64,000 bases of DNA, taken from NCBI RefSeq assembly GCF_055900595.2, contig NZ_CM148325.1; one strand, 5' to 3'. Shown piece by piece: positions 15,601 to 40,481 of the stretch. Every line of letters starts with the position of its first letter. The first letter of the stretch is position 1. Both the position numbers and the translations under genes were made by a program. The notes beneath the pieces were generated by a model. It saw only the letters and a program-made list of their open reading frames with translations. It ran no database searches and was not told where the DNA came from.

Positions 15601-15613
15601 TCTGATCTAACTA

Positions 15614-16681: not shown

Positions 16682-16741
16682 CCGCAAAAAGACGGTCTAT
16701 GATTAAAAGCTAAGATTTTTACTGACCACCCAGGAGAAACG

Positions 16742-22560: not shown

Positions 22561-22580
22561 TGCACTAGTTCTCTAGTACA
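22561..22580 (-). promoter_or_regulatory. Putative TrpR operator of aroH
   Basis: Minus-strand read TGTACTAGAGAACTAGTGCA with two CTAG cores; overlaps ppsR stop codon. Confidence 0.6.
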
Positions 22581-26173: not shown

Positions 26174-27820
26174 TTATTCAACCTCTTTGCAGATATCCTG
26201 AGTTAATCGCCGCATAATATCTTTCCTTAACAAAAACTTTTGTATTTTACCTGATGCAGTACGCGGTAATTTCTCTGTTACCACAATATGTTCAGGATAT
26301 TTATATTTTGCTACCCGTTTACGGCTAAAAAAAGCCACTATGTCTTCCAGCGATATTGAATGATGTGGCGCTTTAAGCACGACATAAGCGCATGAACGTT
26401 CACCTAAGCGTTCATCGGGCATTGCCACAACACAAGCATCATGAATTTTAGGATGCTGTAATAAAATATCTTCCACTTCACGACTGCTAATATTTTCCCC
26501 GCCGCGGACAATAATATCTTTCTTGCGCCCGGTTATTTTTATATAGCCAGCTTCATCCATTCGGCAGAGATCGCCGCTGTAATACCAGCCTTCTTCATCC
26601 AGCGCACGGGCGGTTAATTCAGGTTCATCAAAATAACCCATAAACACATTGGGACCACGCGAAGCCTCTTCACCTACACAACCAGGCGGTAAGGTCTTGC
26701 GTGCATCATCGACCACTTTAATCTCTACGCCTGCGGCAGCGTAACCATCGGTGTTCATAAAGCGCGACAAAGGATCGTCGAGATTTACCACCGCATGCGG
26801 CGAACTTTCTGTGGAACCATAAACACTTAATAATTTAATGCCGCGTTGTTGGCATTCACGCGCCACCTTTTTGGGGATCGTGGTGCCGCCGCAAAGAAAG
26901 AAGCGCAGCGCTGAAAGGTCTGCGGGCTGTTTCTCCAGTAAATTCAAAAGGTCATAGACAAACGGTGTTGCGCCGAGCATACAGGTGCAACGCTGCTGCT
27001 CAAGCAGCGCGAGACACGCATCAGGAGTGAAAATATCTAACAACACGCTGCGAGCACCAATCAAAAAAGGTGCTGTTACGCCATGCAGAAAGCCCGTTGC
27101 GTGACCAAGTGGCGCAGGCATCATAAAGACATCCTGCCAGGTCAGATTCAGCCGCGCGCAATAAGCCCGCTCACTGGCGAGAATATTGTTATGCGTTAGC
27201 ATCACGCCCTTTGGCAGACCCTCGGTTCCGGAGGTAAATAGCACAGCGGCTAATTCATCGCCGTGGGTCGTTATCGCCGTAGTCAGTGGGGTATTGTCGG
27301 CGAGAATCTGACTTAATGAGAGGGAAGAGGTGGCGGGAGCCAGTTTGTCCACGCCGACAATTTGTTGTAGTTGTGGAAGCTGATTTTGCAGCGGCAGGAT
27401 TAAATCTACCGGACGCGTTTGTTTAAACAACGTCGGTGCAAAGAACATTTTTGCCTGACACTTATTGAGTACCCACACCAGTTCTGCTTCCCGCCAGGAA
27501 GGTAACAGCGGCACGGAAACCGCACCGGTTTTCAGGCAGGCAAGATAGATAACGGTAAATTCACACCAGCCTGGCAGTTGAAATGCGATGCGATCGCCTG
27601 ATTCAATACCCTTCGCCAGCATCCAGTTTGCCAGACAGCTCGCGGCATGATCGAGCGCGCTATAGGTGTACGATGCACCATGATTATCGACCACGGCAAT
27701 TTTATCTGGCATCGAACGAGCGGTCTGCTGCCAGTAATCGGCCAGCGAAGCATCGCCCCATAATCCTTGCTGACGATACGCCGCACGACGTTGTTCGTTG
27801 AACGTTAATGTCACTTTCAT
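26174..27820 (-). CDS. fadK: Short-chain acyl-CoA synthetase (548 aa)
   Basis: ATG at 27818-27820 (minus) gives MKVTLTFNEQRRAAYRQQ; AMP-binding motifs TSGTEGLPKG. Confidence 0.9.
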   Translation of the reverse strand: MKVTLTFNEQRRAAYRQQGLWGDASLADYWQQTARSMPDKIAVVDNHGASYTYSALDHAASCLANWMLAKGIESGDRIAFQLPGWCEFTVIYLACLKTGAVSVPLLPSWREAELVWVLNKCQAKMFFAPTLFKQTRPVDLILPLQNQLPQLQQIVGVDKLAPATSSLSLSQILADNTPLTTAITTHGDELAAVLFTSGTEGLPKGVMLTHNNILASERAYCARLNLTWQDVFMMPAPLGHATGFLHGVTAPFLIGARSVLLDIFTPDACLALLEQQRCTCMLGATPFVYDLLNLLEKQPADLSALRFFLCGGTTIPKKVARECQQRGIKLLSVYGSTESSPHAVVNLDDPLSRFMNTDGYAAAGVEIKVVDDARKTLPPGCVGEEASRGPNVFMGYFDEPELTARALDEEGWYYSGDLCRMDEAGYIKITGRKKDIIVRGGENISSREVEDILLQHPKIHDACVVAMPDERLGERSCAYVVLKAPHHSISLEDIVAFFSRKRVAKYKYPEHIVVTEKLPRTASGKIQKFLLRKDIMRRLTQDICKEVE

Positions 27821-27876: not shown

Positions 27877-28170
27877 TTAGCCGTAGCGAAAATCAATACC
27901 GAAGGTGCCTGCGGGATATTGCCACTGTTCGAGAATAGTGTTGCCGCACAGCACCCGACAGGTGCCGCACTCCAGACAACCGGCGGAATCGAAATGAATG
28001 TTTCCAGCGTCATCCTGCTTATAAAGTCCGGCAGGGCAAGCTTTCATTAATTTACGGAATTCATTGATATCGGGATTTGCCGCCAAAATGATATGCGGGT
28101 GGCCCTCATCAACATGGAATTTATTGACGCCTAATTTGATGTCGACGTTAACCGTAGCGTTCTGGCTCAT
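27877..28170 (-). CDS. ydiT: Ferredoxin-like protein (FixX homologue)
   Basis: 97 aa ORF with Cys cluster CLECGTCRVLC. Confidence 0.88.
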   Translation of the reverse strand: MSQNATVNVDIKLGVNKFHVDEGHPHIILAANPDINEFRKLMKACPAGLYKQDDAGNIHFDSAGCLECGTCRVLCGNTILEQWQYPAGTFGIDFRYG

Positions 28171-29456
28171 AGCGCGGTTGCTCCTTTAATGCCATCTTTC
28201 AGCAAGTTGATCAGCCCAATTTTCTTCGCGTGTCCCATGATCATTTTGCGTACCGGCTGGTTTGGTTTGCCGTCGATGGTGAACATATCGTTCATGATGT
28301 CGGCGACCATTCGTGGGTATTGGCTAAACAGGCGCGGGTTTTCCATCAGCGCCGGGATCTTGCGGAAATGCTGCATATCGCGCATAACACAACTTTGTTC
28401 CAGCTCACGTTTGTATTGCGCCAGGCTGCTGGCGGAGAAGTCAGCGCGTTCTTTAGCGGCAATCACTGTTGTGGCGGCAGCCTGGGCCGATGCGATGGCT
28501 AAATCCATTCCGCGAACCGTAAAGCCCAGATTGAGGCAGAAACCTGCGGCATCACCGACGATCATCACGCCCTCATTAACCAGCTGCGGCACCATCGCCA
28601 GACCGCCTTCCGGCACCATGTGCGCGGAATATTCAAGCAGTTTGCCGCCGCTAATCAGCGGGCGAATGGCGGGGTGTTGTTTAAAATCTTCCAACATTTG
28701 CGGCACACTTTTTTGCGCATGAGCGATATCACCCAATCCACAAACCAGCCCCAACGATACGGAATCCTTGTTGGTATAGAGGAATCCGCCGCCCATCAAG
28801 CCGTCAGAAGGGGAACCGGCAAACAGCCAGGCGGCACCTTCCTCGCCCGTAACATTAAAGCGATCGTTGATCTGTTCTGGTGTGAGGCCAATAACCTCTT
28901 TAACACCAACAGCGTAATGATGCGGATCGGAAGCGGGAACCATTCCCAGCGAGCGGCCAAGCATCGAGTTAACGCCATCAGCCAGAATCACCACATTCGC
29001 TTCAAGAACATCATCCCCGGCCTGAACGCCAGTGATCTTATTTCCTTCACGAACCAGCGCATCGACACGAACGCCCGGGATAAACTGCGCGCCAGCCTGT
29101 TCGGCTTGTTCCATCAACCACGGGTCCAGACGATTACGCAATACAGTATAAGACGCGTGTTGCGGAACATCTGGTTGCTCGCGGTGAAAATCGAGGGTAA
29201 CGGCACTCTCTTCGGTTAAGAAGGAGATTTTCTCGCGTGTGACCTTGCGTTCTACCGGCGCTGATGCTGCAAAGCCTGGAATAATCGCTTCAAGTGTGTG
29301 GGCATAAAGACGCCCGCCGGTCATGTTTTTACATCCGGCACTGTCGCCGCGTTCTATCACCAGGACATCCAGCCCGGCTCGCGCCATGACCAGTGCGGCA
29401 ACGCTACCGGCAACGCCCGCACCGACCACAATGGCATCAAATTTGTCATCCGACAT
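28167..29456 (-). CDS. ydiS: ETF:quinone oxidoreductase-like flavoprotein (FixC homologue)
   Basis: 429 aa ORF with N-terminal FAD fold AIVVGAGVAGSVAA. Confidence 0.9.
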   Translation of the reverse strand: MSDDKFDAIVVGAGVAGSVAALVMARAGLDVLVIERGDSAGCKNMTGGRLYAHTLEAIIPGFAASAPVERKVTREKISFLTEESAVTLDFHREQPDVPQHASYTVLRNRLDPWLMEQAEQAGAQFIPGVRVDALVREGNKITGVQAGDDVLEANVVILADGVNSMLGRSLGMVPASDPHHYAVGVKEVIGLTPEQINDRFNVTGEEGAAWLFAGSPSDGLMGGGFLYTNKDSVSLGLVCGLGDIAHAQKSVPQMLEDFKQHPAIRPLISGGKLLEYSAHMVPEGGLAMVPQLVNEGVMIVGDAAGFCLNLGFTVRGMDLAIASAQAAATTVIAAKERADFSASSLAQYKRELEQSCVMRDMQHFRKIPALMENPRLFSQYPRMVADIMNDMFTIDGKPNQPVRKMIMGHAKKIGLINLLKDGIKGATAL

Positions 29457-29511
29457 GCGTTATGCTCCCTTCCCGCTGCATTTACAGCGGGAGATGTGGT
29501 TGAAAGGGGAA

Positions 29512-30450
29512 TTAGCGGCTCAACTGGCTAATCAGGGCAGGGACGACTTTGTAAATATCGCCCACCAGACCGTAGTCGGCATAGTTGAAGATTGGCGCAT
29601 TTTTATCTTTATTGATGGCGACAATCACTTTTGCGCCGTTGCCGCCAACCATATGCTGGATCTGCCCGGAGATCCCCAGCGTCAGGTAGAGATCGGATTT
29701 CAGCAACACGCCGGAGACACCGATATAACGTTCACGCTCCATCCAGTTCTCGCCTTCGGCAATTGGACGTGAACAGCCGACTTCAGCATTCAGCACCGCC
29801 GCCAGTTCGTGGACCATTTTCAGGTCATCCTGCGCCGCCAGACCACGACCGACGCCAACCACACGTTTTGCTTTGCTCAGGTCCACGCTGCTTGCCGCTT
29901 TCGCACGGCGTTCGCGACAGAGAATTTCATGACGCGGGGCAACATAAGGTACCGTTTCTGTCGGGCACTGATGAGAGATATCACTGGTGCACGGTTCCTG
30001 AACACCGGGTGCAAGGGTAATAATCGCCAGCGGGCTGTTGATCTTTTCCTGAGCAAACGCTAACCCGCCATACATCCGGTGTTCGGCGCAAATGTGACCA
30101 TCGACAATATCCACCGCCGTGGCATCGTTCACCAGCGCCGCATTCAGTTGCACACTTAACCGTGCTGCCAGAGCTTTACCACGTTTCGTCGCGGCCAACA
30201 GCAACATAGCGGGGTGTTTATCTTTCAGCAGGGCAGCAATGCTTTCGGCGTAATTTTCAGTACGTTGCAGCGCGTCGTTTTGCTCAAGAACATAAATACA
30301 TTTTGGCCCATAAGGCATAACTGCCTGCGCCTGGTCGGTATTTTGTACAATGGCATACACCTGTTGGCCCCATTGCTGAGCGCCGCCAAACAGTTCAGCA
30401 TAACGTTCAGGATTATCGCTAAAGACCCAGACGCTGTTTAATTGACTCAT
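29512..30450 (-). CDS. ydiR: Electron transfer flavoprotein alpha subunit (FixB homologue)
   Basis: 312 aa ORF, ETF-alpha-like. Confidence 0.9.
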   Translation of the reverse strand: MSQLNSVWVFSDNPERYAELFGGAQQWGQQVYAIVQNTDQAQAVMPYGPKCIYVLEQNDALQRTENYAESIAALLKDKHPAMLLLAATKRGKALAARLSVQLNAALVNDATAVDIVDGHICAEHRMYGGLAFAQEKINSPLAIITLAPGVQEPCTSDISHQCPTETVPYVAPRHEILCRERRAKAASSVDLSKAKRVVGVGRGLAAQDDLKMVHELAAVLNAEVGCSRPIAEGENWMERERYIGVSGVLLKSDLYLTLGISGQIQHMVGGNGAKVIVAINKDKNAPIFNYADYGLVGDIYKVVPALISQLSR

Positions 30451-30469
30451 CGTTTCTTCTCCGTAGGCT

Positions 30470-31234
30470 TCAGTTCAGGGCTTTCTTCAGATGTTCCGCC
30501 AGCTCGGCAATGGCCTCCGGCGAATCGTTATCGAGAATGATGTGCTTACGTTCTGTTTGCGGCGGTACGCGAATGCCGGTCAGTTCAGCAAGTGGTGTGC
30601 TCTGGCTCCAGCCAATATCACTTGCCTGCCACTGATTTACCGGTTTTTTACCCGCGCCGAGAATGGCTTTCATCGAAGGAATGCGTGGCATGTTAATATC
30701 GGAGGTGACGCAGAGCACGGCTGGAACAGAGAGCTCAATAACTTCAACATCATCTTCAAGCGTGCGTTCAATCACCAGTGTATTGCCCTGACGCTGAATA
30801 GCACTCACTGCATTAATCACCGGAAGTTGCAGAATTTCTCCGACCAGCAAGCCAACCTGCTGGGCATAAAGGTCGCCGGAACCTTCACCAAAGATCAGTA
30901 AATCGAAGCCGATCTTTTCAACTGCTGCCGCCAGCGCCTTTGCGGTATCGAGAGGCAGTGCATGTTCAAGTTGCGCATCCTGCACCAAATACAGGCTATG
31001 CGGCCCGCGGGATAGCACGTCTTTGCGCACTTTCGAGTTCTGCAACAATGAGCCGCCAATGGTCAGCGCGGCTATCTCATCGTCATCTGTTGCAATCTGG
31101 CTTGCAGCTTCAATGGCATTGAGATCGAACTGGCTGATTTTGGCGTCGGCATTGTCGAAATTCAGGGTATATTCTGGAGTGACAACAATGTCCTGTTCTT
31201 CAGGCACCAGCTTAAAGCAGGTTATTATTTTCAT
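30470..31234 (-). CDS. ydiQ: Electron transfer flavoprotein beta subunit (FixA homologue, 254 aa)
   Basis: ATG at 31232-31234 (minus) gives MKIITCFKLVPEEQDIVV. Confidence 0.9.
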   Translation of the reverse strand: MKIITCFKLVPEEQDIVVTPEYTLNFDNADAKISQFDLNAIEAASQIATDDDEIAALTIGGSLLQNSKVRKDVLSRGPHSLYLVQDAQLEHALPLDTAKALAAAVEKIGFDLLIFGEGSGDLYAQQVGLLVGEILQLPVINAVSAIQRQGNTLVIERTLEDDVEVIELSVPAVLCVTSDINMPRIPSMKAILGAGKKPVNQWQASDIGWSQSTPLAELTGIRVPPQTERKHIILDNDSPEAIAELAEHLKKALN

Positions 31235-31549: not shown

Positions 31550-32461
31550 ATGTATCAACGCTGTTTTGATAACGCCAGCGAAACGCTGTTTGTCGCCGGT
31601 AAAACGCCACGGCTTTCACGTTTTGCATTTAGCGATGATCCAAAATGGGAGTCCGGACATCACGTTCATGACAATGAAACCGAGCTGATTTACGTCAAGA
31701 AAGGGGTAGCAAGGTTTACCATCGATTCTTCGTTATATGTCGCGCATGCCGATGACATTGTGGTGATAGAACGTGGCAGGTTGCATGCGGTGGCCTCTGA
31801 CGTTAACGATCCAGCAACGACGTGTACCTGTGCGCTGTACGGCTTTCAGTTTCAGGGGACTGAGGAAAATCAGCTACTGCAACCGCATTCTTGCCCGGTC
31901 ATTGCCGCAGGGCAGGGAAAAGAAATCATTAAAGCCTTATTTAATGAGCTAAGTGTGATTTTGCCGCAAAGTAAAAATAGCCAAACATCTTCGTTATGGG
32001 ACGCATTTGCCTATACGTTAGCAATTCTTTACTACGAAAACTTTAAAAATGCTTATCGTTCGGAGCAGGGATATATTAAAAAAGATGTTCTGATAAAAGA
32101 TATTCTTTTCTATCTGAATAATAATTATCGCGAAAAAATCACTTTAGAGCAGTTATCGAAAAAATTTCGTGCCAGCGTCAGTTATATTTGCCATGAATTT
32201 ACCAAAGAGTATCGTATTTCCCCTATTAACTATGTTATTCAACGGCGTATGACGGAAGCGAAATGGTCACTCACCAATACTGAATTATCACAGGCAGAGA
32301 TCTCCTGGCGTGTGGGTTATGAAAATGTCGATCACTTTGCCAAACTGTTTTTGCGCCATGTCGGCTGTTCGCCCAGCGATTACCGCAGGCAATTTAAAAA
32401 CTGTTTTGCGGAACAAGAAATCTTATCTGAATTTCCTCAACCGGTAAGTCTTGCCGGATAA
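31550..32461 (+). CDS. ydiP: AraC-family transcriptional regulator
   Basis: 303 aa ORF with C-terminal AraC-type HTH region; divergent from ydiQ. Confidence 0.88.
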   Translation: MYQRCFDNASETLFVAGKTPRLSRFAFSDDPKWESGHHVHDNETELIYVKKGVARFTIDSSLYVAHADDIVVIERGRLHAVASDVNDPATTCTCALYGFQFQGTEENQLLQPHSCPVIAAGQGKEIIKALFNELSVILPQSKNSQTSSLWDAFAYTLAILYYENFKNAYRSEQGYIKKDVLIKDILFYLNNNYREKITLEQLSKKFRASVSYICHEFTKEYRISPINYVIQRRMTEAKWSLTNTELSQAEISWRVGYENVDHFAKLFLRHVGCSPSDYRRQFKNCFAEQEILSEFPQPVSLAG

Positions 32462-32503: not shown

Positions 32504-33655
32504 TTATTTGTTCTGATAATCTTTCAGGATCTGCCGACCCGCTACGTAAATCATAATTTCGTCTGTACCGCCGCCGATACGTTCACAACGGACATCACGC
32601 CAGAAGCGAGAGACGCGCGCCTCATCGGTATAGCCCAGACCGCCCATGATTTGAATCGCATCATCAATAACTTCCATTGCGGTACGTGCGCAGTACAGTT
32701 TTGCCAGCGCCGCGCTGGTGCGCAGTGACTGATGCTGATCGGCTTGCCATGCCACTTTCAACACCATGTTGCGCATGTTGTCGATCTTAATCGCCATCAG
32801 CGCCAGTTTTTCCTGGATCATCTGGTTATGACCAATGGGTTTACCAAAAGCGATACGTTGGTTGGCATAGCGGGCGGCATCTTCGAATGCGCATTCGGCA
32901 AAGCCGGTGCTGCGCGCGGCGTTGATCAGGCGCTCCATCTCAAAGTTGTACATCACATTGAGGAAACCCATTCCTTCTTCGCCCACCATGTCGCTCTCTT
33001 CAACCTCTACGTTGTCGAGATAGACTTCGCAGGTGCTGAGCATATGCCAGCCGATTTTATGCAGCGGGTTAATCTTAATGCCGGGCTTACTGGAGTCGAC
33101 CCACCACAGGGTGAAGGCTTTTTTGGGATCTTTCGGTTCTGGATCGCGCGCCAGCACCAGCATATATGGGTACTCTTTCGCGCCGGTAATAAAGGTTTTC
33201 TGGCCGTTGATGTAAACCTTGCCATTTTTACGCGTGTAAGTGGTAGTGGCACTGTTATTGTCTGAGCCTGCGCCTGGTTCCGTCAACGCCAGGGCATAGG
33301 CGGGATCACCCGTTTCCAGGGTGCTCTCTGCCGTTTTACGTAGCTGCTCAGCAGAACCGAAACGGCGCATGCTGTGAATACATTGACCGTTGGTAATCAA
33401 AAATGCCGGAGCACCGCATTTTGACACTTCCATCAGCGCCAACATCTGGGTGACGTAATCCGCAGGGATGCCACCAAATTCTTCCGGCACGCCAAGCATA
33501 GAAATGCCGTTATCCGCCAGTGCCTGCATAAACTCACGCGGGTATGTCCCGTTTTGATCGCAGGTGCGGAAATACTCTTCCGGGAAGTTGGTCGTAATCA
33601 ATTCGCGAATACTGGCCAGCAGCAGTTCTTGTTCTTCAGTTAAAGAAAAATCCAT
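32504..33655 (-). CDS. ydiO: Acyl-CoA dehydrogenase family protein (383 aa)
   Basis: ATG at 33653-33655 (minus) gives MDFSLTEEQELLLASIREL; ACAD family. Confidence 0.9.
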   Translation of the reverse strand: MDFSLTEEQELLLASIRELITTNFPEEYFRTCDQNGTYPREFMQALADNGISMLGVPEEFGGIPADYVTQMLALMEVSKCGAPAFLITNGQCIHSMRRFGSAEQLRKTAESTLETGDPAYALALTEPGAGSDNNSATTTYTRKNGKVYINGQKTFITGAKEYPYMLVLARDPEPKDPKKAFTLWWVDSSKPGIKINPLHKIGWHMLSTCEVYLDNVEVEESDMVGEEGMGFLNVMYNFEMERLINAARSTGFAECAFEDAARYANQRIAFGKPIGHNQMIQEKLALMAIKIDNMRNMVLKVAWQADQHQSLRTSAALAKLYCARTAMEVIDDAIQIMGGLGYTDEARVSRFWRDVRCERIGGGTDEIMIYVAGRQILKDYQNK

Positions 33656-33668: not shown

Positions 33669-35264
33669 TTAATGAGCCGCTTCAGGCAGGACAAAACCCA
33701 TCGCCGCATCGATAAATAATCTTTCGTCCATCAGTTTGAGTTCTGGCGAAATCACTGGGGTGAAATCCATTTTGTCGAGAATATCTTTTTGTAAATCGAC
33801 GCCAGGAGCGATTTCGATTAAATGCAGGCCGTCTTCTTTTAGCGTGAATACGGCGCGCTCAGTGATATAACGAACATCCAGTCCTCGCTCGAGAGCGATT
33901 TTTCCGCTGAAAGTAATTTCCGGTAGTTCCCGAATAAATTTCTTCACCCGTCCTTCCTGGACGATATTTAATTTTCCGTCGGTAATTTCTGTTTTTAAAC
34001 TGCCCGCAGTTAATGTGCTGCAGAAAACGATTTTCTTCGAAGTGGCACTGATATCAATAAATCCACCGGTGCCCATGATTTTACCATTGAATTTATGCAC
34101 GCCGACGTTACCGTGCTGGTCGACTTCAGCAAAACTCAAATAACAAACATCCAGACCACCACCGTGATAAAAATCAAACTGGGACGTCATATCCAGAATG
34201 GCACGGGTATTCACGTTCGCGCCAAAGGCGATCCCCTGTGAAGTAATACCGCCAATTGGGCCTGTTTCTACCGTCAGAATAAAGTCATCAGCACAACCTT
34301 CTTCCCGGGCGACCAGGCCAATGCCGTCGGCAATACCGACGCCGACATTCCCCACCGCGCCTTTGCGCATTTCGAATAATGCGCGCCGCGCAACTAATTT
34401 ACGTTGGTTTAGGGGTAGGCTAAGTTTGGTGCTGTCATCAAGGGTGAAGTCACCAGAAATAAAGCGGTTAACCGGCGCACCGCCATACAGTTGGGTTTGA
34501 TCCGGATCGACTACCACAATATCCACCAGATAACCCGGAATACGGACAGATTTAGGATGCAGCGTGGCTTTCTTAACCATCTTCTGCACCTGCATCATCA
34601 CAATACCGCCGTTATTGTGCACCGCCTGAGCAATAACCAATGCGTCGAGATACATCACCTCATCTTCAAAAGTGGCGTAGCCTTCACTGTCGCAGGTGGT
34701 AGCGCGAATGAAGGCGATATCTGGCGCTATCGCTTTGTAATAGAGATATTCTTTGTTATCAAACTCGACCAGTTTAATCAGGTCTTCTTTAGTGACTTCA
34801 TTCAGTTTGCCGCCTTGCTGGCGTGGATCGACAAATGTTCCGATGCCAATATCACTAATAATACCAGGCTGGTGGGCTGCGGCGGCGCGTAAGGTTTGTG
34901 TAAGTACACCTTGTGGATAGTTATAAGCAATAATTTTATTTTGTTCTGCGAGATCAGAAATACGCGGCGATTGTCCCCAGTGACCGCATAATGCCCATTT
35001 CACCAGACCTTCTTGCGCCAGCGGACTAATACCACGGTCGGCGCGATCGCCAAGCCCTGTTGGACTAATAATCGATAAATTACGTGGTGTTTGAGTCTGT
35101 TTATATTTATCAGCAAGAGCAGTAATTAACGTGGTGGCTTCCAGAATACCGCCGCCAGCGCCTAACACACAAAGTGTTGCTTCGTCGGGAATATAATTCA
35201 CCGCTTCCTGTGCCGACAGGACCGGCACTCGTCCATTAATACGAGGTGGTTTTACAGGTTTCAT
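33669..35264 (-). CDS. ydiF: Acyl-CoA:acetate CoA-transferase (fused alpha/beta)
   Basis: 531 aa ORF, recognised YdiF sequence. Confidence 0.9.
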   Translation of the reverse strand: MKPVKPPRINGRVPVLSAQEAVNYIPDEATLCVLGAGGGILEATTLITALADKYKQTQTPRNLSIISPTGLGDRADRGISPLAQEGLVKWALCGHWGQSPRISDLAEQNKIIAYNYPQGVLTQTLRAAAAHQPGIISDIGIGTFVDPRQQGGKLNEVTKEDLIKLVEFDNKEYLYYKAIAPDIAFIRATTCDSEGYATFEDEVMYLDALVIAQAVHNNGGIVMMQVQKMVKKATLHPKSVRIPGYLVDIVVVDPDQTQLYGGAPVNRFISGDFTLDDSTKLSLPLNQRKLVARRALFEMRKGAVGNVGVGIADGIGLVAREEGCADDFILTVETGPIGGITSQGIAFGANVNTRAILDMTSQFDFYHGGGLDVCYLSFAEVDQHGNVGVHKFNGKIMGTGGFIDISATSKKIVFCSTLTAGSLKTEITDGKLNIVQEGRVKKFIRELPEITFSGKIALERGLDVRYITERAVFTLKEDGLHLIEIAPGVDLQKDILDKMDFTPVISPELKLMDERLFIDAAMGFVLPEAAH

Positions 35265-35408
35265 TGTTAATTCCTGATTCAGGTGTGATTTTCCCTACGC
35301 CAGATGGAGAATTAGAGCGCAGAGACTCACGAAATATTTTTATTAAATACGGTTGAATATATTTTTTTAGTTCGGCGGGGGAGGGTATTCCCGCCGAAAT
35401 ATTATTGC

Positions 35409-36167
35409 TTATGCCTGATGTAAAATAGTTAATACCGTGCGCAAATCATTTACCGAGATTTGCCCTGGCGCAGAGGCTTTTTTTACCGCACCAAAAGTTG
35501 CCGCCGAGCCAAATACTTCACCAGCCAGACGAGAAATTACGCCAGTTTTTGCCATTGACATCGTGATGATTGGACGATCGGCATACTGCTCCTGCATCTC
35601 CAGGGTCGCAGCAAGCAACGTCAGCACATCGCTGGTACTTTGCGGCATCAGCGCAATCTTAGGAATATCGGCATCGAAGGACTGCATTTTGCGCAGACGG
35701 GCAATGATTTCTTCGGCTTCCGGCGTTTTATGGAAGTCGTGGTTGGACATGACAACTTTCACATCATGCGCGTGGGCGTAGGCGACGGTTTCTTTAACCT
35801 GATCATCGCCGGTAAATAACTCCAGATCGATCATATCAACCAGGCCACTATCGATGGCTGCACGATTGAGTGCAATATAAGCCTCGGTGGAAATCGCCTG
35901 CTCGCCGCCTTCTTTGGCACTGCGGAAGGTAAACAGCAGTGGTTTTTCTGGCATGGTTTCACGGAGAATTTTTGCTGCCGCCATGACAGACTCCACATTG
36001 GAGAGGTCGGCATAGTGGTCCACACGCCATTCCAGAATATCAAAGTCCGCTTCACGATAGGCGAGAGCTTCGGATTTCACGCTGGCGATATCTTTCGCCA
36101 TCAGCGAGACGATGATTTTAGGTGCGCCCGTACCAATGACGAGATCTTTTACAGTTACGGTTTTCAT
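35409..36167 (-). CDS. aroD: 3-dehydroquinate dehydratase type I
   Basis: 252 aa ORF, recognised AroD sequence. Confidence 0.95.
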
Positions 36168-36197
36168 TTTTTACCCTTTCTGCACGCGGTCAGCCTG

Positions 36198-37064
36198 TCA
36201 GGCACCGAACCCCATGACCTGTTTAACATATTCCAGAGGGAAATCTTTGCCAGTCCATAACGTGAACTGTTCAGCCCCTTGCCACAACAACATGCCGTAT
36301 CCATCAATCGTTTTGCAACCAGCTTGTTGCGCCTGCTGCAATAACTTCGTCATATGCGGGTTATACACGCATTCAGTGACCAGAAGTCCCGGATGTAACA
36401 GACTGATATCATTAACCAATGATTCATTCTCAAGGGGTTTCATACCCACTTTTGTGCCATTGGTTAAAATGTCGGCGGAAGCCAGGGCTTCAGCAAAGGC
36501 TTGCTGATCGGCGAGATCGGTAACCGTGACGACACAATCGGTGTTTTCGTTAACCCGCTGCGCGAAGGCGAGGGCTTTATCGAAGAACTCATCCCGACGG
36601 TTAAAGAGTTTAATTTCTTTTAAACCTTCAATTGCCCCCTGCGCGCCAATCGCCGTTGAGGCACCTCCGGCCCCTAACAGCACCATTGTTTTGCCTTTGA
36701 TATCAAAACCGCTCTCTTTAATGGCGCGAATATGGCCCGTGCCGTCGGTGTTATAGCCACGCAGATAGCCATCATCATTAACGATGGTGTTGATGGCACC
36801 CACAAGTTTGGCCGCTGGTGTTAATTCATCAACATATTCACACGCCAGTTGTTTGTTCGGCATTGATACACCAGTTCCGCGCATTTTGAGGGCTTTTAAT
36901 CCTTCAATTGCTCCGGGAAAACTATCGTTATCCACTTCAAAGGCCATATAGGTAAATGGCAATCCCGCTTTTTCTAAGGCTTTATTCTGCATTTCAGGCG
37001 ATAAACTGTGGCGGATAGGATAGGCCATCAACCCAATCAATTCGTATTTTGCGGTAACATCCAT
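36198..37064 (-). CDS. ydiB: Quinate/shikimate 5-dehydrogenase
   Basis: 288 aa ORF, shikimate dehydrogenase family. Confidence 0.93.
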
Positions 37065-37075
37065 AATTAACTCCT

Positions 37076-38341
37076 TTAACCTCTATGCTTAATTGTGTTT
37101 AACCGGGTGCTAAATTTACGCTCGCCAAACCGCACATCATTCTCAGGAATAATAAAAACGCGGTAATAGCGGATAAAAACAATAATTGCGGTAATCAGGG
37201 CCAGCAGCGCGAAAGTAAAATCGAGAACGATGATATATTGCAGGCCGATGTTCGACAGATAACCGGTAATCAGCGGAATAACAAAATTAGCCAATCCACC
37301 CATCATCATATAAATACTGGTGACTTTGGCTTTGCTTTTGGGGAAAAACTCTGACATGACCGAAACGCCGAGCTGTAAAATGCCGCCAGCTGCTGAGAAA
37401 CCGATAACAAAGGCTCCGGCATTACACACCAGTGGAGAAGGGTACAGGTAGATAATGGCTGATGTTATTGTTGCCAGTGCAGAGTTAAATACATTAGCCC
37501 ATATGGGCCGGACCATTTTTTTCAGTAGTGCGGCAAAAATAAAGACACAGACCAACGAGCCCATACTGTAATAAGAGATGGTTTTTAATGCCTCAGCTTC
37601 TGACATACCAGCAAAAGCCATCGCATATTTGGGCATCCACACCACAATCACATAAAAGGTCGAGAATGCAGCTACACCGAACAGTACCGATGAAACACCT
37701 TCCAGCCAGACTAACGGTTTGCTGTTCATTTGCGGTAATTCATTAGCTACGCTGGCGTCCACCAACTGGTTGGGGAATTTGCTTTTCAATAGCATCAGCG
37801 TGATCAGTACAAACAGAATACCCGGAATAATCAGCCCATAGCCGTACCAGATGTTATTGAGCAACATATAGCTCACCAGCATTGGGTAGAACATTTGTCC
37901 GAATGACACCATCGCTTTAACCAGTATGACCGCCGAACCAGAGGCTTTCGGAAAGCATTCCATGAGCGCAGGGTAGCCACCCGTATCCAGCGCTGAGTTA
38001 GCGATACCTACGCACACTGCCAGACAGTAGGCGAGAGTTAAATTCGGGCAAGCGGGAATACCAAAGAAGAATAGCAGATACATTATTACTGCCATTAATA
38101 TCACCGCCCGACGACCAAACTTATCGGAGATCACACCGAAGAATAAAATACTGATCAATCGCCCCAAACCGATACCGGAAATTAAATAGGCAATGCCCGC
38201 GTTGTCAGTGGAAAACTTTTCTGCCAGAGATGACATATTTTGGGCAAGCGTTATAACACTAATGCCGTGCAGGAAATAGCTAAAGTAAATACAAAGAACA
38301 GCCAGGATAAATGGCGTGCTGAAAGCCTTATTTTGAGACAT
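37076..38341 (-). CDS. ydiN: MFS transporter YdiN
   Basis: ATG at 38339-38341 (minus) gives [16 protein letters not shown]; polytopic. Confidence 0.88.
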
Positions 38342-38567
38342 TTTCACAGCTCCTTGCTGAAAGATAATTTCGTTACCGTACGTATTGTTCTCCGACGGTT
38401 TACATAATTACTATACTGAAGATGATTTTCCCTGGGTACATGGCATAAAGTTTATGTTTCCAGGAATATTGCATGTCATAGTTTGTTTTTTATCGCGATT
38501 TTCCTTAGTTGGCGCAGAAAGAGTTATTTATCCGTAAGATCTTGCATGACCTGAAAAGAATATTGCA

Positions 38568-39782
38568 TTACCCACCCGGAGCGACATTTTCCTTTAGCGA
38601 GTGATGCCACGTTTCTTTGCGGCTGCGTAAGCTGATAAACAGTGCCAGTAAAAAGCCGATGGCAGCGATGGCGGTATCGAACCACATAATATCGGCAATA
38701 CTTCTTTGGGATAGATGAGCCGTAATCAACGGAATAGTAAAGGTCGCAATACTGCCCGCACTGTAATAGATCCCTGTAGCTTTACCTTTAGCGTAGGGGA
38801 AACGTTCAGCCATTAATGTCAGGCCAATTTGCACAACACCTCCAGCAGAGGTAAAACCAATGACAAAAGCAAATATTATCACCACATAAAATGTGGGATG
38901 CAGACAGACGGTAAACAGAGCAATAAATGAGATAAAGGTGTACAGCATGAGTAATGTTGTTGGGCGAACGGTATTACGAATGAGTGGAGCGGTAATAAAT
39001 ACACAAAGCAGCGAACCCACGGTGTAGATACTGAGTAGTTTGATCGACATAGTGTATGACATGCCTGCAACAAATTGTCCGTACTGTGCCAGCCACTGGC
39101 TAACCAGATAAAAGGTTGCCATTGAGATATAGCCATATAAGGTATAACTGGCTAAATCGATAATTGAACAGCGATGTTCCGTAGAGTTGGTGGCTTTCTC
39201 TATGACAGGTAAGCGACGACCCGGATGGGGTGGGAACGTACAACGGTATAAAAACAGAGCATTAATAAACATAATGCCTGCGGCAATCATAAAGGACCAG
39301 CCGAACCACAGTTCAGCCCACACTAACAGGCTGATGATTAGCGGTAATAAAAATTGCCCGCTGGAAACAAATGCTTTAATTAAAATATTAGCTGTACCCG
39401 GTGAACGTGGAAAAGCTTCCATCAAACTGGGATAGGTGCCTGCATCGAGAAAACTGTTTGCCATTCCCGCCAGAAAGCCCAAACCATAAGCGATAATGAT
39501 GTTATTGGTGTGCAGGATGCCAAAAAAGAAGGCCATATAGCAGCACATCCCGAGCATGATAAAAGGGCGGCGACCAAAGCGATCGGATAATAATCCTGCA
39601 AAAAGCAAGACACTTAATCGACCAATACCCAGCGATGAGATAACTATTGAGACGCCTGCGGCATTAGTCTGCCAAAGCGTCTCCAGCGAGGCCATATTCA
39701 GGCTCATCAAAATGACGCCCATACCATGCACCAGGTAATTAAAATACAACCCAAGTGCGGTAGGGAAATAGGGATTTTTCAT
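38568..39782 (-). CDS. ydiM: MFS transporter YdiM
   Basis: 404 aa polytopic ORF, paralogue-like to ydiN. Confidence 0.88.
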   Translation of the reverse strand: MKNPYFPTALGLYFNYLVHGMGVILMSLNMASLETLWQTNAAGVSIVISSLGIGRLSVLLFAGLLSDRFGRRPFIMLGMCCYMAFFFGILHTNNIIIAYGLGFLAGMANSFLDAGTYPSLMEAFPRSPGTANILIKAFVSSGQFLLPLIISLLVWAELWFGWSFMIAAGIMFINALFLYRCTFPPHPGRRLPVIEKATNSTEHRCSIIDLASYTLYGYISMATFYLVSQWLAQYGQFVAGMSYTMSIKLLSIYTVGSLLCVFITAPLIRNTVRPTTLLMLYTFISFIALFTVCLHPTFYVVIIFAFVIGFTSAGGVVQIGLTLMAERFPYAKGKATGIYYSAGSIATFTIPLITAHLSQRSIADIMWFDTAIAAIGFLLALFISLRSRKETWHHSLKENVAPGG

Positions 39783-39880: not shown

Positions 39881-40237
39881 TTAACAAAGGCGCTCCAGAT
39901 CGTGTGCATATAATTCAGCGGCTACCGATTGATAGATCTTCCAGTCAATAAAATTGCCATCAGGGTAGACACGTTGAAACGCGGTTAAGTCAGGGAAAAA
40001 ACGCATGGTGTTGTTGCCGATGCGGTTATTTATTTTCTCTATGATGGCATGAAGATGTTTTTTTCGTTGCTGTCGCATAGCCAACAGTTGCTCGACCACA
40101 CGATCAGGAATGGCGCATTTGCCATTTTCCCACTGACGCCAGCTTTCACTGTCACCGGTCTGGGCAATCCAGGTCGCGCATTCATCAATAGTCATGGCAA
40201 AAATATGGCGAAGTGCCTGGAGTTCATAAGCGTTCAT
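39881..40237 (-). CDS. ydiL: Uncharacterised protein YdiL (118 aa)
   Basis: ATG at 40235-40237 (minus) gives MNAYELQALRHIFAMTIDECATW. Confidence 0.8.
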   Translation of the reverse strand: MNAYELQALRHIFAMTIDECATWIAQTGDSESWRQWENGKCAIPDRVVEQLLAMRQQRKKHLHAIIEKINNRIGNNTMRFFPDLTAFQRVYPDGNFIDWKIYQSVAAELYAHDLERLC

Positions 40238-40375
40238 CGTGTAATGGCTGCATGAAATAAACAATAAAATATAAATAACATTATCAGCCTGCCGACGGCT
40301 TGAAGAGAGTCACAGTATCTTGTGCAACATTATTGGAAAGAGTGAGGGGGCGAGGTAGCGAAGCGGAAAAATGTT

Positions 40376-40481
40376 AAAAAAAAGCCCATCGTGGGAGATG
40401 GGCAAAGACTACACACAGCAATTCGTTGTTTCACTCAGGGGATTTCCATGCTTATAAATCAATATGTTGATTTATAACCGT
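40376..40481 (-). ncRNA. rprA: Small regulatory RNA RprA (activator of rpoS translation)
   Basis: Minus strand reads ACGGUUAUAAAUCAACAUAUUGAUUUAUAAGCAUGGAAAUCCCCUGAGUGAAACAACGAAUUGCUGUGUGUAGUCUUUGCCCAUCUCCCACGAUGGGCUUUUUUU with terminal hairpin and U-run. Confidence 0.9.

What the first reader, a model, noticed from the sequence alone, without database searches (positions are those of the whole stretch)
35409..39782. aroD-ydiB-ydiN-ydiM: biosynthetic dehydroquinase linked to a quinate/shikimate dehydrogenase and two MFS transporters
All four genes are tightly spaced on the minus strand. Pairing a shikimate-pathway enzyme with a dual-specificity quinate/shikimate dehydrogenase and two paralogous MFS permeases looks like a remnant hydroaromatic uptake/catabolic unit, not pure biosynthesis. 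Transporter substrates cannot be read from sequence.
Basis: inference. Interest (0 to 1): 0.35.

Follow-up and report, generated by a model that had tools for sequence, protein, structure and literature searches.

The report
E. coli aroD-ydiB-ydiN-ydiM hydroaromatic gene cluster
These are four well-known core E. coli genes (a dehydroquinase, a quinate/shikimate dehydrogenase and two sister transporters) whose link to plant-type ring acids has been proposed in print since 2006; the one fresh lead is that they probably work with the neighbouring ydiF-ydiO-ydiQRST-fadK genes.

Summary
Window 35409-39782 (minus strand) holds aroD, ydiB, ydiN and ydiM, found in 5425 of 5426 complete E. coli genomes. 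"Tightly spaced" holds for ydiN-ydiB-aroD only (gaps of 11 and 30 bp). ydiM lies 226 bp upstream, across a gap with a conserved dyad element. In Yersinia, Serratia, Dickeya and Brenneria this position holds a LysR regulator gene.

The hydroaromatic-transport idea is already published (Johansson and Liden 2006, read through citing papers; Hu 2009; a 2023 PLoS One paper). "Remnant catabolic unit" is only partly right:
- All genes are under strong purifying selection (dN/dS 0.014-0.11).
- The window has no dehydroshikimate dehydratase.
- Only the cognate LysR is missing.

New lead: in 80 species, the MFS + dehydrogenase + type I dehydroquinase module almost always sits beside a C=C reductase module. 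In most Firmicutes and Orbaceae this is an OYE-type Fe-S flavoenzyme. In Enterobacterales, Sutterella and one Sporolactobacillus it is a CoA-activating enzyme (YdiF or FadK), a YdiO-type acyl-CoA dehydrogenase and ETF/FixCX. In two metagenomic clusters the dehydroquinase gene sits between the ETF and FixC genes. This suggests a carnitine (Cai/Fix)-like reductive route for quinate/shikimate. It is untested.

The finding as stated is already known and of low-to-moderate interest.

The parts
35409..36167 (-). aroD, type I 3-dehydroquinate dehydratase (252 aa)
   Evidence: TIGR01093 scores 292 bits against a cut-off of 139, and PF01487 matches. RefSeq annotates it as aroD. The catalytic residues E86, H143, K170 and R213 are invariant in alignment A3.
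36198..37064 (-). ydiB, NAD(P)-dependent quinate/shikimate dehydrogenase (288 aa)
   Evidence: NF009390 scores 670 bits against a cut-off of 349. The Shikimate_dh_N and SDH_C domains are present. It lies 30 nt upstream of aroD. dN/dS is 0.015.
37076..38341 (-). ydiN, MFS permease (421 aa), 11 nt upstream of ydiB
   Evidence: Pfam MFS_1 and the RefSeq annotation. It matches the aromatic-acid/H+ symporter model TIGR00895 only weakly, at 44 bits against a cut-off of 418.
38342..38567 (-). ydiM-ydiN intergenic region (226 nt). It holds a conserved dyad-like element at about 38437-38475 and a TATAGT at 38410-38415. This is a candidate activator-dependent promoter/operator for ydiN-ydiB-aroD, and it is the position where other genera carry a divergent LysR gene.
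   Evidence: Sequence. Alignment A2 shows a conserved TGCAATA...TTAT..TAC.GTA block in Escherichia, Citrobacter, Kosakonia, Dickeya, Yersinia, Serratia and Brenneria. The LysR position comes from the synteny table. No terminator-like site was found in the gap. The promoter reading is inference.
38568..39782 (-). ydiM, MFS permease (404 aa), paralogue of ydiN
   Evidence: 37% identical to YdiN over the full length, E = 9e-87. Pfam MFS_1. RefSeq annotation.
39881..40237 (-). ydiL, small Aca2/YdiL-family helix-turn-helix protein. It is the conserved upstream neighbour of ydiM and a possible regulator.
   Evidence: PF08965 at E = 3.7e-61. Present next to ydiM in 38 of 42 orthologous loci, and also in Frischella. 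The regulatory role is inference.
35371..35398 (.). GC-rich hairpin in the 144-nt aroD-ydiF spacer
   Evidence: Found by the terminator scan on the plus strand. As RNA of the aroD strand it folds at -17.5 kcal/mol, z = -3.7, but is followed by an A-run rather than a U-run. Read-through into ydiF is therefore neither shown nor excluded.
33669..35264 (-). ydiF, fused family I acyl-CoA:acetate CoA-transferase (531 aa). It lies directly downstream of aroD on the same strand.
   Evidence: Pfam CoA_trans in homologous loci and NCBIfam hits. Adjacent to aroD in 40 of 42 orthologous loci.
32504..33655 (-). ydiO, acyl-CoA dehydrogenase/reductase (383 aa), the closest paralogue family of CaiA
   Evidence: NF008997 scores 787 bits. 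The next best models are the CaiA model NF002885 (452 bits), then acryloyl-CoA reductase and cyclohexane-1-carbonyl-CoA dehydrogenase. dN/dS is 0.014.
31550..32461 (+). ydiP, AraC-family regulator with a cupin sensor domain, divergent from ydiO
   Evidence: A 44%-identical homologue lies divergent from the whole MFS-ydiF-ydiO-ETF-SDH-DHQase-FixCX operon in L009.
27877..31234 (-). ydiQ, ydiR, ydiS and ydiT: electron-transfer flavoprotein beta and alpha subunits plus FixC-like and FixX-like proteins
   Evidence: The second-best NCBIfam family for each is FixA, FixB, FixC and FixX respectively. Conserved with the cluster in 37-38 of 42 orthologous loci.
26174..27820 (-). fadK (ydiD), acyl-CoA synthetase
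   Evidence: NF004758 scores 1079 bits. The second-best family is cyclohexanecarboxylate-CoA ligase TIGR03208 (424 bits), above the fatty-acid ligase families. An orthologue that passes the FadK cut-off sits beside SDH-DHQase-MFS-MFS in Sporolactobacillus.

Best explanation
This is the known, functional E. coli core locus ydiM | ydiN-ydiB-aroD.

Shown:
- aroD is a type I dehydroquinase with its catalytic residues intact.
- ydiB is a quinate/shikimate dehydrogenase.
- ydiN and ydiM are paralogous MFS permeases.
- ydiN-ydiB-aroD are packed like an operon behind a conserved upstream element, and ydiM stands apart.
- All the genes are under purifying selection.
- The permease + dehydrogenase + dehydroquinase trio is conserved from Enterobacterales to Firmicutes.

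Inferred:
- The module takes up hydroaromatic acids (quinate, shikimate or 3-dehydroshikimate). It interconverts them as quinate -> 3-dehydroquinate (YdiB, NAD+) -> 3-dehydroshikimate (AroD) <-> shikimate (YdiB or AroE).
- It uses the cell's only dehydroquinase, which biosynthesis also needs.
- The products can feed aromatic biosynthesis (salvage).
- They probably also enter the adjacent ydiF-ydiO / ydiQRST / fadK module, which would activate the ring acid as a CoA thioester and reduce its C1=C2 double bond. The second permease would export the product.
- Escherichia, Citrobacter and Kosakonia have lost the LysR regulator that controls the module elsewhere. In E. coli the module is therefore probably poorly induced or controlled by another factor.
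For: Gene identities.

Operon-like spacing and the conserved upstream element.

Presence in the E. coli core genome.

Purifying selection against E. whittamii: ydiB 0.015, ydiO 0.014, ydiF 0.022, aroD 0.041, ydiN 0.042, ydiM 0.075.

Conserved linkage of YdiN/M-type permeases with the dehydrogenase and type I dehydroquinase: 40 of 42 orthologous loci and 35 of 38 distant loci. Independently, PMC10588857 reports that about 75% of homologues lie next to a shikimate-pathway gene.

Two MFS paralogues occur in 25 of 38 distant loci.

A Telmatospirillum homologue lies in a cluster with a type II dehydroquinase, a dehydrogenase and a gene I read as a QuiC1-like dehydratase.

Published experiments:
- ydiN, ydiB and aroD are co-induced under carbon limitation.
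- ydiN and ydiB deletions impair shikimate use.
- A ydiN deletion raises shikimate titre 1.3-fold.

Coupling to a reductase module:
- An OYE-type Fe-S flavoenzyme gene lies in the same operon in 29 of 38 distant loci.
- ydiF-ydiO is adjacent in 40 of 42 orthologous loci.
- In L009/L010 the dehydrogenase and dehydroquinase lie between ETF-alpha and FixC. In L096 the dehydroquinase alone does.
- Sporolactobacillus L093 links ACAD, ETF, FixCX and a FadK orthologue with the trio.
- YdiO and YdiQRST are the closest relatives of CaiA and FixABCX. FadK's second-best family is cyclohexanecarboxylate-CoA ligase.
- The LysR regulators of Dickeya and Carnobacterium are 47% identical.
Against: - No transport assay exists for YdiN or YdiM.
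- YdiM has been linked instead to copper uptake and bo3 oxidase activity, and to isoprenol tolerance.
- ShiA is the established shikimate transporter.
- From my own knowledge, not checked here: E. coli K-12 is not known to grow on quinate or to use it as an aromatic supplement, and YdiB has a low turnover in vitro.
- ydiFO, ydiQRST and fadK are conventionally assigned to anaerobic fatty-acid oxidation.
- The aroD-ydiF spacer is 144 nt with a stable hairpin, so co-transcription is unproven.
- Within Enterobacterales the aroD-ydiF adjacency could be inherited synteny.
- One YdiO homologue at 74% identity has no such context.
- No product of the proposed reduction has been reported from E. coli.
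Confidence: 0.6

Rival explanations
1. Salvage only. ydiN (and ydiM) import quinate or shikimate, and YdiB and AroD channel them solely into chorismate biosynthesis. The neighbouring ydiFO-ydiQRST-fadK genes are an unrelated fatty-acid system that happens to lie next door.
For: aroD is the biosynthetic dehydroquinase. Shikimate-kinase-like genes lie beside the module in 13 of 80 loci, and L011 reads kinase-MFS-dehydrogenase-dehydroquinase. PMC10588857 reports neighbours ydiB > aroD > aroK and chorismate mutase fusions. ydiN and ydiB deletions impaired shikimate use. ydiFO/ydiQRST/fadK are conventionally read as anaerobic beta-oxidation genes.
Against: Salvage does not explain why an ene-reductase gene shares the operon in 29 of 38 distant loci. 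It also does not explain why the dehydroquinase, with or without the dehydrogenase, is inserted between ETF and FixC genes in L009 and L096, or why a FadK orthologue, ACADs and ETF/FixCX join the trio in Sporolactobacillus. A 2022 review says the roles of YdiQR and FadK in fatty-acid degradation lack evidence.
Confidence: 0.25
2. One reading: a decaying remnant of a classical oxidative quinate/shikimate catabolic cluster (qui/qsu/qut type) whose downstream steps were lost.
For: The gene set (transporter, quinate/shikimate dehydrogenase, dehydroquinase) matches the first steps of those clusters. The cognate LysR regulator is missing in Escherichia. A Telmatospirillum homologue lies in a cluster of that type.
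Against: All genes are intact, part of the core genome and strongly constrained. The window has no dehydroshikimate dehydratase or type II dehydroquinase. Among 80 species, only one locus has a dehydratase within 10 kb, whereas reductase modules are the rule. There is therefore no sign that the enterobacterial lineage ever carried the oxidative branch.
Confidence: 0.07
3. Coincidental neighbours. YdiM and YdiN carry unrelated cargo (copper, solvents or drugs), and their adjacency to ydiB and aroD has no functional meaning.
For: [quoted passage not shown] Neither protein reaches any curated NCBIfam transporter cut-off.
Against: The linkage is conserved across phyla with shuffled gene orders. 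ydiN is co-expressed with ydiB and aroD, and ydiN deletions have shikimate-related phenotypes.
Confidence: 0.08

Closest known systems
E. coli K-12 ydiM / ydiN-ydiB-aroD locus, as described in the literature (Johansson and Liden 2006; Hu et al. 2009, PMC2672614; PMC10588857, 2023)
   Same: It is the same locus, with the same genes and order, at 95-99% DNA identity to essentially every E. coli genome. The hypothesis that YdiN moves shikimate-pathway acids is already stated there.
   Different: Nothing in the four genes themselves differs. This window comes from a lineage no closer than 99.0% to any complete E. coli genome. Those papers do not discuss the link to ydiF-ydiO-ydiQRST-fadK, the lost LysR or the ene-reductase partners.
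Classical quinate/shikimate catabolic clusters: Acinetobacter qui, Corynebacterium qsuABCD, Aspergillus qut (described from my own knowledge)
   Same: They share a transporter, a quinate/shikimate dehydrogenase and a dehydroquinase as the first steps, with a dedicated regulator in relatives.
   Different: The window has no dehydroshikimate dehydratase and no protocatechuate pathway. The dehydroquinase is the cell's only, biosynthetic, type I enzyme. The conserved partners are reductases rather than ring-cleavage enzymes.
Carnitine system caiTABCDE / fixABCX of E. coli
   Same: YdiO is most similar to CaiA, and YdiQ/R/S/T to FixA/B/C/X. A CoA-transferase, a CoA ligase, a dehydratase and a transporter are encoded together. 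FixAB are needed for anaerobic carnitine reduction.
   Different: YdiF is a family I CoA-transferase, whereas CaiB belongs to family III. The transporters are MFS rather than BCCT. The dehydratase (AroD) acts on the free acid and is not a crotonase. The substrate and the reaction have not been demonstrated.
Respiratory flavin 'shikimate reductase' of Eggerthella lenta, and shikimate respiration in Sutterella wadsworthensis (bioRxiv 10.1101/2022.12.26.521950)
   Same: It is the chemistry proposed here: reduction of the enoate of shikimate to 3,4,5-trihydroxycyclohexanecarboxylate by gut bacteria. Shikimate is detected in faeces. S. wadsworthensis carries a ydiN-ydiB-aroD-ydiF-ydiO + ydiQRST + fadK cluster.
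   Different: That enzyme belongs to the family of respiratory flavin reductases described in that preprint and is not CoA-dependent. The Sutterella enzyme was not assigned there, because RNA-seq was done only on E. lenta and H. filiformis.
ShiA, the established E. coli shikimate/dehydroshikimate permease
   Same: It is an MFS transporter for the same class of substrate.
   Different: From my own knowledge, ShiA belongs to the metabolite:H+ symporter family. YdiN matches that model (TIGR00883) only at E = 1e-4 with no significant stretch. ShiA is not encoded in this cluster.
Quinate -> dihydroshikimate reduction by cider lactobacilli (Carr et al. 1957; Whiting and Coggins 1971, 1974; recalled from memory, not read here)
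   Same: It is a reductive use of quinate and shikimate that needs a hydroaromatic dehydrogenase, a dehydroquinase and a double-bond reduction. Secundilactobacillus collinoides and relatives carry LysR | dehydrogenase-MFS-dehydroquinase clusters with extra dehydrogenase and MFS copies.
   Different: As far as I know, the genes for that pathway were never assigned. No OYE-type gene lies within 10 kb in the four Lactobacillaceae loci. E. coli has not been reported to perform the reaction.

Membership tests
Type I 3-dehydroquinate dehydratase (AroD; TIGR01093 / PF01487) | Profile score above the curated cut-off over the full length | tested here: met
   292.2 bits against a cut-off of 139.3, residues 17-245 of 252. 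PF01487 scores 260 bits.
Type I 3-dehydroquinate dehydratase (AroD; TIGR01093 / PF01487) | Schiff-base lysine and catalytic His/Glu (K170, H143, E86), plus R213 | tested here: met
   All are invariant in alignment A3 of the window protein and six cluster homologues. The residue roles come from established knowledge of the family.
YdiB-type quinate/shikimate dehydrogenase (NF009390) | Profile score above the cut-off, with the N-terminal substrate domain and the C-terminal SDH domain | tested here: met
   669.9 bits against a cut-off of 349, residues 1-288. PF08501 and PF18317 are both present.
YdiB-type quinate/shikimate dehydrogenase (NF009390) | Dual substrate (quinate and shikimate) and dual cofactor (NAD/NADP) activity | not testable with these tools
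   This is known for the K-12 enzyme from the literature (cited). It was not measured for this allele, which is 99% identical to RefSeq proteins.
Aromatic acid:H+ symporter family (TIGR00895; TC 2.A.1.15) | Profile score above the curated cut-off | tested here: not met
   YdiN scores 44 bits and YdiM 35 bits against a cut-off of 418.55. TCDB nevertheless lists them as 2.A.1.15.13 and 2.A.1.15.12, according to PMC10588857. Only membership in MFS_1 is secure.
Aromatic acid:H+ symporter family (TIGR00895; TC 2.A.1.15) | Demonstrated transport of an aromatic or hydroaromatic acid | not testable with these tools
   The searchable literature reports no transport assay. There are only indirect phenotypes.
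Classical quinate/shikimate catabolic cluster (qui/qsu/qut type) | Transporter + quinate/shikimate dehydrogenase + dehydroquinase encoded together | tested here: met
Classical quinate/shikimate catabolic cluster (qui/qsu/qut type) | Dehydroshikimate dehydratase feeding protocatechuate degradation | tested here: not met
   tblastn of the Telmatospirillum gene I read as a QuiC1-like dehydratase finds nothing in the 64-kb window. Only 1 of 80 related loci has one within 10 kb.
Classical quinate/shikimate catabolic cluster (qui/qsu/qut type) | Dedicated pathway regulator adjacent to the cluster | tested here: not met
   The LysR gene found between ydiM and ydiN in Yersinia, Serratia, Dickeya and Brenneria is absent from the window. 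Its DNA has no blastn match in 5,426 E. coli genomes. ydiP (AraC family) and ydiL (helix-turn-helix) are nearby, but their targets are unknown.
Cai/Fix-like CoA-dependent enoyl reduction system | CaiA-type acyl-CoA dehydrogenase/reductase with FixAB-type ETF and FixCX-type partners encoded together | tested here: met
   YdiO scores 452 bits on the CaiA model. That is below the equivalog cut-off of 540, so it is a paralogue and not CaiA itself. The second-best hits of YdiQ, R, S and T are FixA, B, C and X. All lie within 9 kb of aroD.
Cai/Fix-like CoA-dependent enoyl reduction system | CoA-transferase and CoA ligase specific for the substrate | tested here: inconclusive
   YdiF is a family I transferase, unlike the family III CaiB. 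FadK's second-best model is cyclohexanecarboxylate-CoA ligase at 424 bits, well below that model's cut-off of 792. Substrates were not tested.
Cai/Fix-like CoA-dependent enoyl reduction system | Demonstrated reduction of the enoyl-CoA derived from the imported substrate | not testable with these tools
   This needs enzymology or metabolite analysis (see next steps).

The most novel reading that the evidence does not exclude
The four genes are the front end of a 14-kb hydroaromatic reduction system, ydiM, ydiN-ydiB-aroD-ydiF-ydiO, ydiP, ydiQRST-fadK, built like the carnitine Cai/Fix system.

Proposed steps:
- Quinate or shikimate is imported.
- It is converted through 3-dehydroquinate to the enoate 3-dehydroshikimate or shikimate (YdiB, AroD).
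- It is activated as a CoA thioester (FadK primes, YdiF recycles the CoA).
- YdiO reduces the ring C1=C2 bond with electrons supplied through YdiQR and YdiST.
- The dihydroshikimate-type product is exported by the second permease.

Under this reading the OYE-type operon found in most Firmicute and Orbaceae loci (Enterococcus, Carnobacterium, Paenibacillus, Megasphaera, Gilliamella and others) is the CoA-independent or FadH-like equivalent. This would give a function to the orphan genes ydiF, ydiO, ydiQRST and fadK. It would also give a genetic basis for the reduction of quinate and shikimate to dihydroshikimate by gut and food bacteria.
Probability: 0.35. Interest if true: 0.7.

Novelty: already known. 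Interest (0 to 1): 0.35.

Why it matters
As stated, the finding matters little. It re-describes a known E. coli locus and a hypothesis already in print.

The comparative lead could matter in three ways:
- ydiF, ydiO, ydiQRST and fadK are long-standing poorly characterised genes. A 2022 review says evidence for their fatty-acid role is lacking.
- YdiB's physiological role is unclear.
- Quinate and shikimate are abundant plant-derived acids. Shikimate is detected in faeces and is reduced by some gut bacteria.

A CoA-dependent hydroaromatic reduction pathway would connect these loose ends. It is directly testable with existing Keio mutants and LC-MS.

Tried and rejected
- **Riboswitch or leader RNA.** I looked in the ydiM-ydiN gap and in the 800-nt LysR-ydiN spacer of Dickeya. 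Rfam at E <= 1 found only RprA in the window, plus weak sub-threshold hits in the ydiK-ydiJ spacer, and nothing in Dickeya.
- **Terminator between ydiM and ydiN.** The scan found no terminator-like site in the gap. Promoter-like hits in the region were no more frequent than in shuffles (8 found, 10.4 expected), so the consensus scans decide nothing.
- **Leftover catabolic genes.** I searched the 64-kb window for a dehydroshikimate dehydratase, type II dehydroquinase, OYE-type reductase, extra shikimate kinase or the cognate LysR. None was found. The LysR DNA has no match in any complete E. coli genome.
- **Prior publication of the wider link.** I searched the literature for any link between ydiO or ydiF and shikimate or quinate, and found nothing relevant. 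The library holds open-access papers only. Johansson and Liden 2006, Campbell et al. 2003 and Morgan-Kiss and Cronan 2004 were seen only through citing papers. EcoCyc and RegulonDB could not be consulted.
- **Reciprocal context test from YdiO.** Results were mixed. The 77% homologue supports the link (L096). The 74% homologue is isolated (L097). The 63% Desulfovibrio homologue sits in a Cai-like cluster without a dehydroquinase (L098). The ACAD/ETF/FixCX cassette is therefore generic, and only its nearest relatives are tied to the dehydroquinase.
- **'Remnant'.** Rejected on the basis of dN/dS.

Full report
**1. Observation**

The window carries four minus-strand ORFs at the stated coordinates:
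- aroD, 35409-36167
- ydiB, 36198-37064
- ydiN, 37076-38341 (ATG start nine bases downstream of an AAGGAG; the mechanical ORF starts at a GTG at 38347)
- ydiM, 38568-39782

A 9-kb query around them matches 5425 of 5426 complete E. coli genomes. It covers at least 80% of the query in 5304 of them. RefSeq annotates aroD, ydiB, ydiN and ydiM there. The best identity to any genome is only 99.0%, so the window comes from a somewhat divergent E. coli lineage.

Profile searches agree with the names:
- AroD: TIGR01093, 292 bits (cut-off 139)
- YdiB: NF009390, 670 bits (cut-off 349)
- YdiN and YdiM: Pfam MFS_1

YdiM and YdiN are 37% identical end to end.

"Tightly spaced" is correct only for ydiN-ydiB-aroD, with gaps of 11 and 30 nt. 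ydiM ends 226 nt before ydiN.

**2. Anatomy beyond the coordinates**

Upstream of ydiM lie ydiL (Aca2/YdiL helix-turn-helix family), the sRNA gene rprA (Rfam, 118 bits) and ydiK.

Downstream of aroD there is a 144-nt spacer with a stable hairpin (-17.5 kcal/mol, z = -3.7). On the aroD strand the hairpin is followed by an A-run rather than a U-run. After the spacer come these genes:
- ydiF and ydiO on the same strand, 13 nt apart
- the divergent AraC-type gene ydiP
- ydiQ, ydiR, ydiS, ydiT and fadK

The ydiM-ydiN gap has no terminator-like site. It holds a roughly 40-nt dyad-like block (about 38437-38475) and a TATAGT. This block is conserved upstream of ydiN in Citrobacter, Kosakonia, Dickeya, Yersinia, Serratia and Brenneria. 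I read it as an activator-dependent promoter/operator for ydiN-ydiB-aroD. That reading is inference.

**3. Comparative evidence**

I anchored on a YdiN/YdiM alignment and fetched 80 loci, one per species. I mapped homologues of all the window proteins on them with tblastn.

(a) *Orthologous loci.* There are 42, from Escherichia, Citrobacter, Kosakonia, Intestinirhabdus, Yersinia, Serratia, Dickeya, Brenneria, Symbiopectobacterium, Prodigiosinella and Sutterella.
- 40 have the dehydrogenase and the type I dehydroquinase next to the permease. At least two of the 42 contigs end just after the permease gene (L017, L019).
- 40 have ydiF, 39 have ydiO and 38 have ETF genes.

(b) *A LysR gene.* In 12 of these loci (Yersinia, Serratia, Dickeya, Brenneria, Symbiopectobacterium, Prodigiosinella) a LysR gene lies between ydiM and ydiN, divergent from ydiN.
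- It is absent in Escherichia, Citrobacter and Kosakonia.
- It is 47% identical to the LysR that flanks the module in Carnobacterium, so it is an old companion of the module.
- It is absent from the window, and its DNA finds nothing in 5,426 E. coli genomes.

(c) *Distant loci.* There are 38, from Enterococcus, Paenibacillus, Clostridium, Bacillus-like genera, Megasphaera, Sporolactobacillus, Lactobacillaceae, Gilliamella, Frischella and Telmatospirillum.
- 35 keep the dehydrogenase and dehydroquinase.
- 31 keep the LysR orthologue.
- 25 have two MFS paralogues.
- 29 have a 660-700-aa OYE + pyridine-nucleotide-oxidoreductase gene in the same cluster. The typical order is LysR | OYE - dehydrogenase - MFS - dehydroquinase (- MFS).
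- The OYE protein belongs to the BaiCD / FadH / bilirubin-reductase group of Fe-S flavoenzymes, which reduce C=C bonds.

(d) *Rearranged clusters.*
- In metagenomic loci L009 and L010 the order is AraC | MFS - YdiF - YdiO - ETF-beta - ETF-alpha - dehydrogenase - dehydroquinase - FixC - FixX, with short gaps between genes.
- In L096, found from a 77%-identical YdiO, the order is MFS - CoA-transferase - ACAD - ETF-beta - ETF-alpha - dehydroquinase - FixC - FixX - acyl-CoA ligase.
- In Sporolactobacillus sp. CQH2019 (L093) the order is ACAD - ETF - FixCX | LysR | ACAD - dehydrogenase - dehydroquinase - MFS - MFS - CoaD - ligase. The ligase passes the FadK equivalog cut-off, 767 against 736.

(e) *Other contexts.*
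- Telmatospirillum has a type II dehydroquinase, a dehydrogenase, a TetR gene and a gene I read from its domains as a QuiC1-like dehydroshikimate dehydratase. It is the only classical catabolic context seen.
- L011 has a shikimate-kinase-like gene in front of the trio. This looks like salvage.

(f) *Enzyme integrity.*
- The catalytic residues of the dehydroquinase are invariant in all cluster copies examined.
- The Firmicute dehydrogenases fall in NF001313, which is the second-best model for E. coli YdiB.

(g) *Limits of the reductase cassette.* More distant YdiO relatives are not tied to the dehydroquinase.
- A Desulfovibrio cluster (63% identity) is Cai-like, with a CaiB-type transferase.
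- A 74% homologue stands alone.

The ACAD/ETF/FixCX/ligase cassette is therefore a generic enoyl-CoA reduction cassette. Its substrate-specific genes vary from cluster to cluster.

**4. Selection**

Against Escherichia whittamii, where dS is unsaturated (0.25-0.88), dN/dS values are:

| Gene | dN/dS |
|---|---|
| ydiO | 0.014 |
| ydiB | 0.015 |
| ydiF | 0.022 |
| aroD | 0.041 |
| ydiN | 0.042 |
| ydiM | 0.075 |
| ydiR (highest of the 13 genes) | 0.110 |

Nothing here is decaying. ydiB and ydiO are more constrained than the essential aroD.

**5. Family relations of the neighbours**

- YdiO's best model other than its own is CaiA, crotonobetainyl-CoA reductase (452 bits). Next come acryloyl-CoA reductase and cyclohexane-1-carbonyl-CoA dehydrogenase.
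- The second-best models of YdiQ, R, S and T are FixA, B, C and X.
- FadK's second-best model is cyclohexanecarboxylate-CoA ligase (424 bits), ahead of the fatty-acid ligase families.

**6. Literature**

- Johansson and Liden 2006 found ydiB, aroD and ydiN co-induced under carbon limitation. They proposed that YdiN transports shikimate or its by-products (seen through PMC4585142 and PMC8788726).
- Hu et al. 2009 predicted that YdiN, YdiL and YdiM interact with the Aro genes. They reported shikimate-related defects for ydiN and ydiB deletions.
- A 2023 paper showed that about 75% of YdiM/YdiN homologues lie next to a shikimate-pathway gene. It also linked YdiM to bo3 oxidase activity and copper.
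- Deleting ydiN raises shikimate titre 1.3-fold.
- None of these papers mentions ydiF, ydiO, CoA, LysR or ene-reductases.
- No open-access paper relevantly pairs ydiO or ydiF with shikimate or quinate.
- ydiFO, ydiQRST and fadK are conventionally read as anaerobic beta-oxidation genes. A 2022 review states that YdiQR are of unknown function and that FadK's role is unsettled.
- Shikimate is detected in faeces. Eggerthella lenta and Sutterella wadsworthensis reduce it to 3,4,5-trihydroxycyclohexanecarboxylate as an electron acceptor.
- The Sutterella enzyme was not assigned there. S. wadsworthensis carries the ydiN-ydiB-aroD-ydiF-ydiO + ydiQRST + fadK cluster.

**7. Mechanism**

Shown: the gene identities, the paralogy, the spacing, the conservation and the selective constraint.

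Inferred, with fair support: ydiN-ydiB-aroD is one unit that imports and interconverts quinate, 3-dehydroquinate, 3-dehydroshikimate and shikimate. It shares the cell's only dehydroquinase with biosynthesis. That aroD is the only dehydroquinase comes from established knowledge of E. coli aroD auxotrophy.

Inferred, more tentatively: the enoate made by AroD, or shikimate itself, is activated to a CoA thioester by FadK and YdiF. YdiO then reduces it at the ring double bond with electrons from YdiQR and YdiST, in parallel with CaiD/CaiB/CaiC/CaiA/FixABCX. The second permease exports the product. In most Firmicute and Orbaceae loci an OYE-type reductase would do the same job.

The classical oxidative route is not supported. 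The window lacks the dehydratase, and reductases rather than ring-cleavage genes are the conserved partners.

**8. Verdict**

- The finding as given is already known and of modest interest.
- The most novel reading not excluded is a Cai/Fix-like hydroaromatic reduction system spanning ydiM to fadK. I give it about a one-in-three probability. It is directly testable with existing mutants.

Noticed in passing
window 38342-38567; L002 6300-7202; L035 about 8142-9044: A LysR-family regulator gene lies between ydiM and ydiN, divergent from ydiN, in Yersinia, Serratia, Dickeya, Brenneria, Symbiopectobacterium and Prodigiosinella. It is missing in Escherichia, Citrobacter and Kosakonia. It is 47% identical to the LysR that flanks the equivalent Firmicute operon. 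The operator-like dyad upstream of ydiN is still conserved in E. coli.
   Followed up: yes
L034 about 6228, L036, L043, L051, L068 (between ydiL and ydiM); L060-L064, L066, L079, L081 and L086 nearby: A shikimate-kinase-like gene accompanies the module in 13 of 80 species, in the ydiL-ydiM interval in some Enterobacterales. E. coli has only a 98-nt gap there.
   Followed up: partly
window 39881-40237: ydiL encodes an Aca2/YdiL-family helix-turn-helix protein (the family of anti-CRISPR-associated regulators). It is a conserved neighbour of ydiM in 38 of 42 orthologous loci and is also present in Frischella. It may be a regulator of ydiM.
   Followed up: partly
L003 (Logan SRR6784583); protein cluster of P0089: Sutterella wadsworthensis, a gut bacterium shown elsewhere to respire shikimate, carries ydiN-ydiB-aroD-ydiF-ydiO with ydiQRST-fadK divergent from them and a cytochrome c552 gene alongside. 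Identity to the E. coli proteins is 51-82%, which suggests horizontal transfer between Enterobacterales and Sutterellaceae.
   Followed up: partly
L096 5333-6502 and 18338-19300, around 7129-17147: This is a second ydiF-ydiO-ETF-FixCX-ligase cluster, apparently from the same kind of organism as L010. It contains a type I dehydroquinase but no shikimate-type dehydrogenase. It is flanked by two aldo-keto reductases, two LysR genes and extra MFS genes, so it may act on a related substrate.
   Followed up: no
protein P0007: A single 668-aa predicted YdiN-YdiB fusion (MFS_1 + Shikimate_dh_N + SDH_C) occurs on one 188-kb Logan contig. The natural gap is 11 nt, so this is probably a sequencing or frameshift artefact.
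   Followed up: no
window 31550-32461 versus L001 4551-5462: ydiP (AraC-type regulator) is intact in the window (303 aa). In the closest complete genome (E. coli E200086, 99.0% identity) it is annotated as a pseudogene with an internal stop.
   Followed up: no
window 40374-40481 and 41915-42079: The rprA sRNA gene is confirmed (Rfam, 118.5 bits), with its terminator at 40384-40403. The ydiK-ydiJ spacer gives weak hits to V_AS5 and Ysr49 that fall below the gathering scores. These are probably a repeat element or chance matches.
   Followed up: no
window 5864-7762 (-): A 632-aa ORF sits at the same coordinates as the type III effector gene espL1 in the closest genome. The source strain may therefore carry attaching-and-effacing-type effectors. 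It was not analysed further.
   Followed up: no
window 21370-26117: aroH (DAHP synthase), ppsR and ppsA (PEP synthase) lie immediately beyond fadK, judging by the annotation of the closest genome, which has matching coordinates. Two further genes that supply the shikimate pathway therefore border the ydi cluster. Whether this is meaningful was not examined.
   Followed up: no
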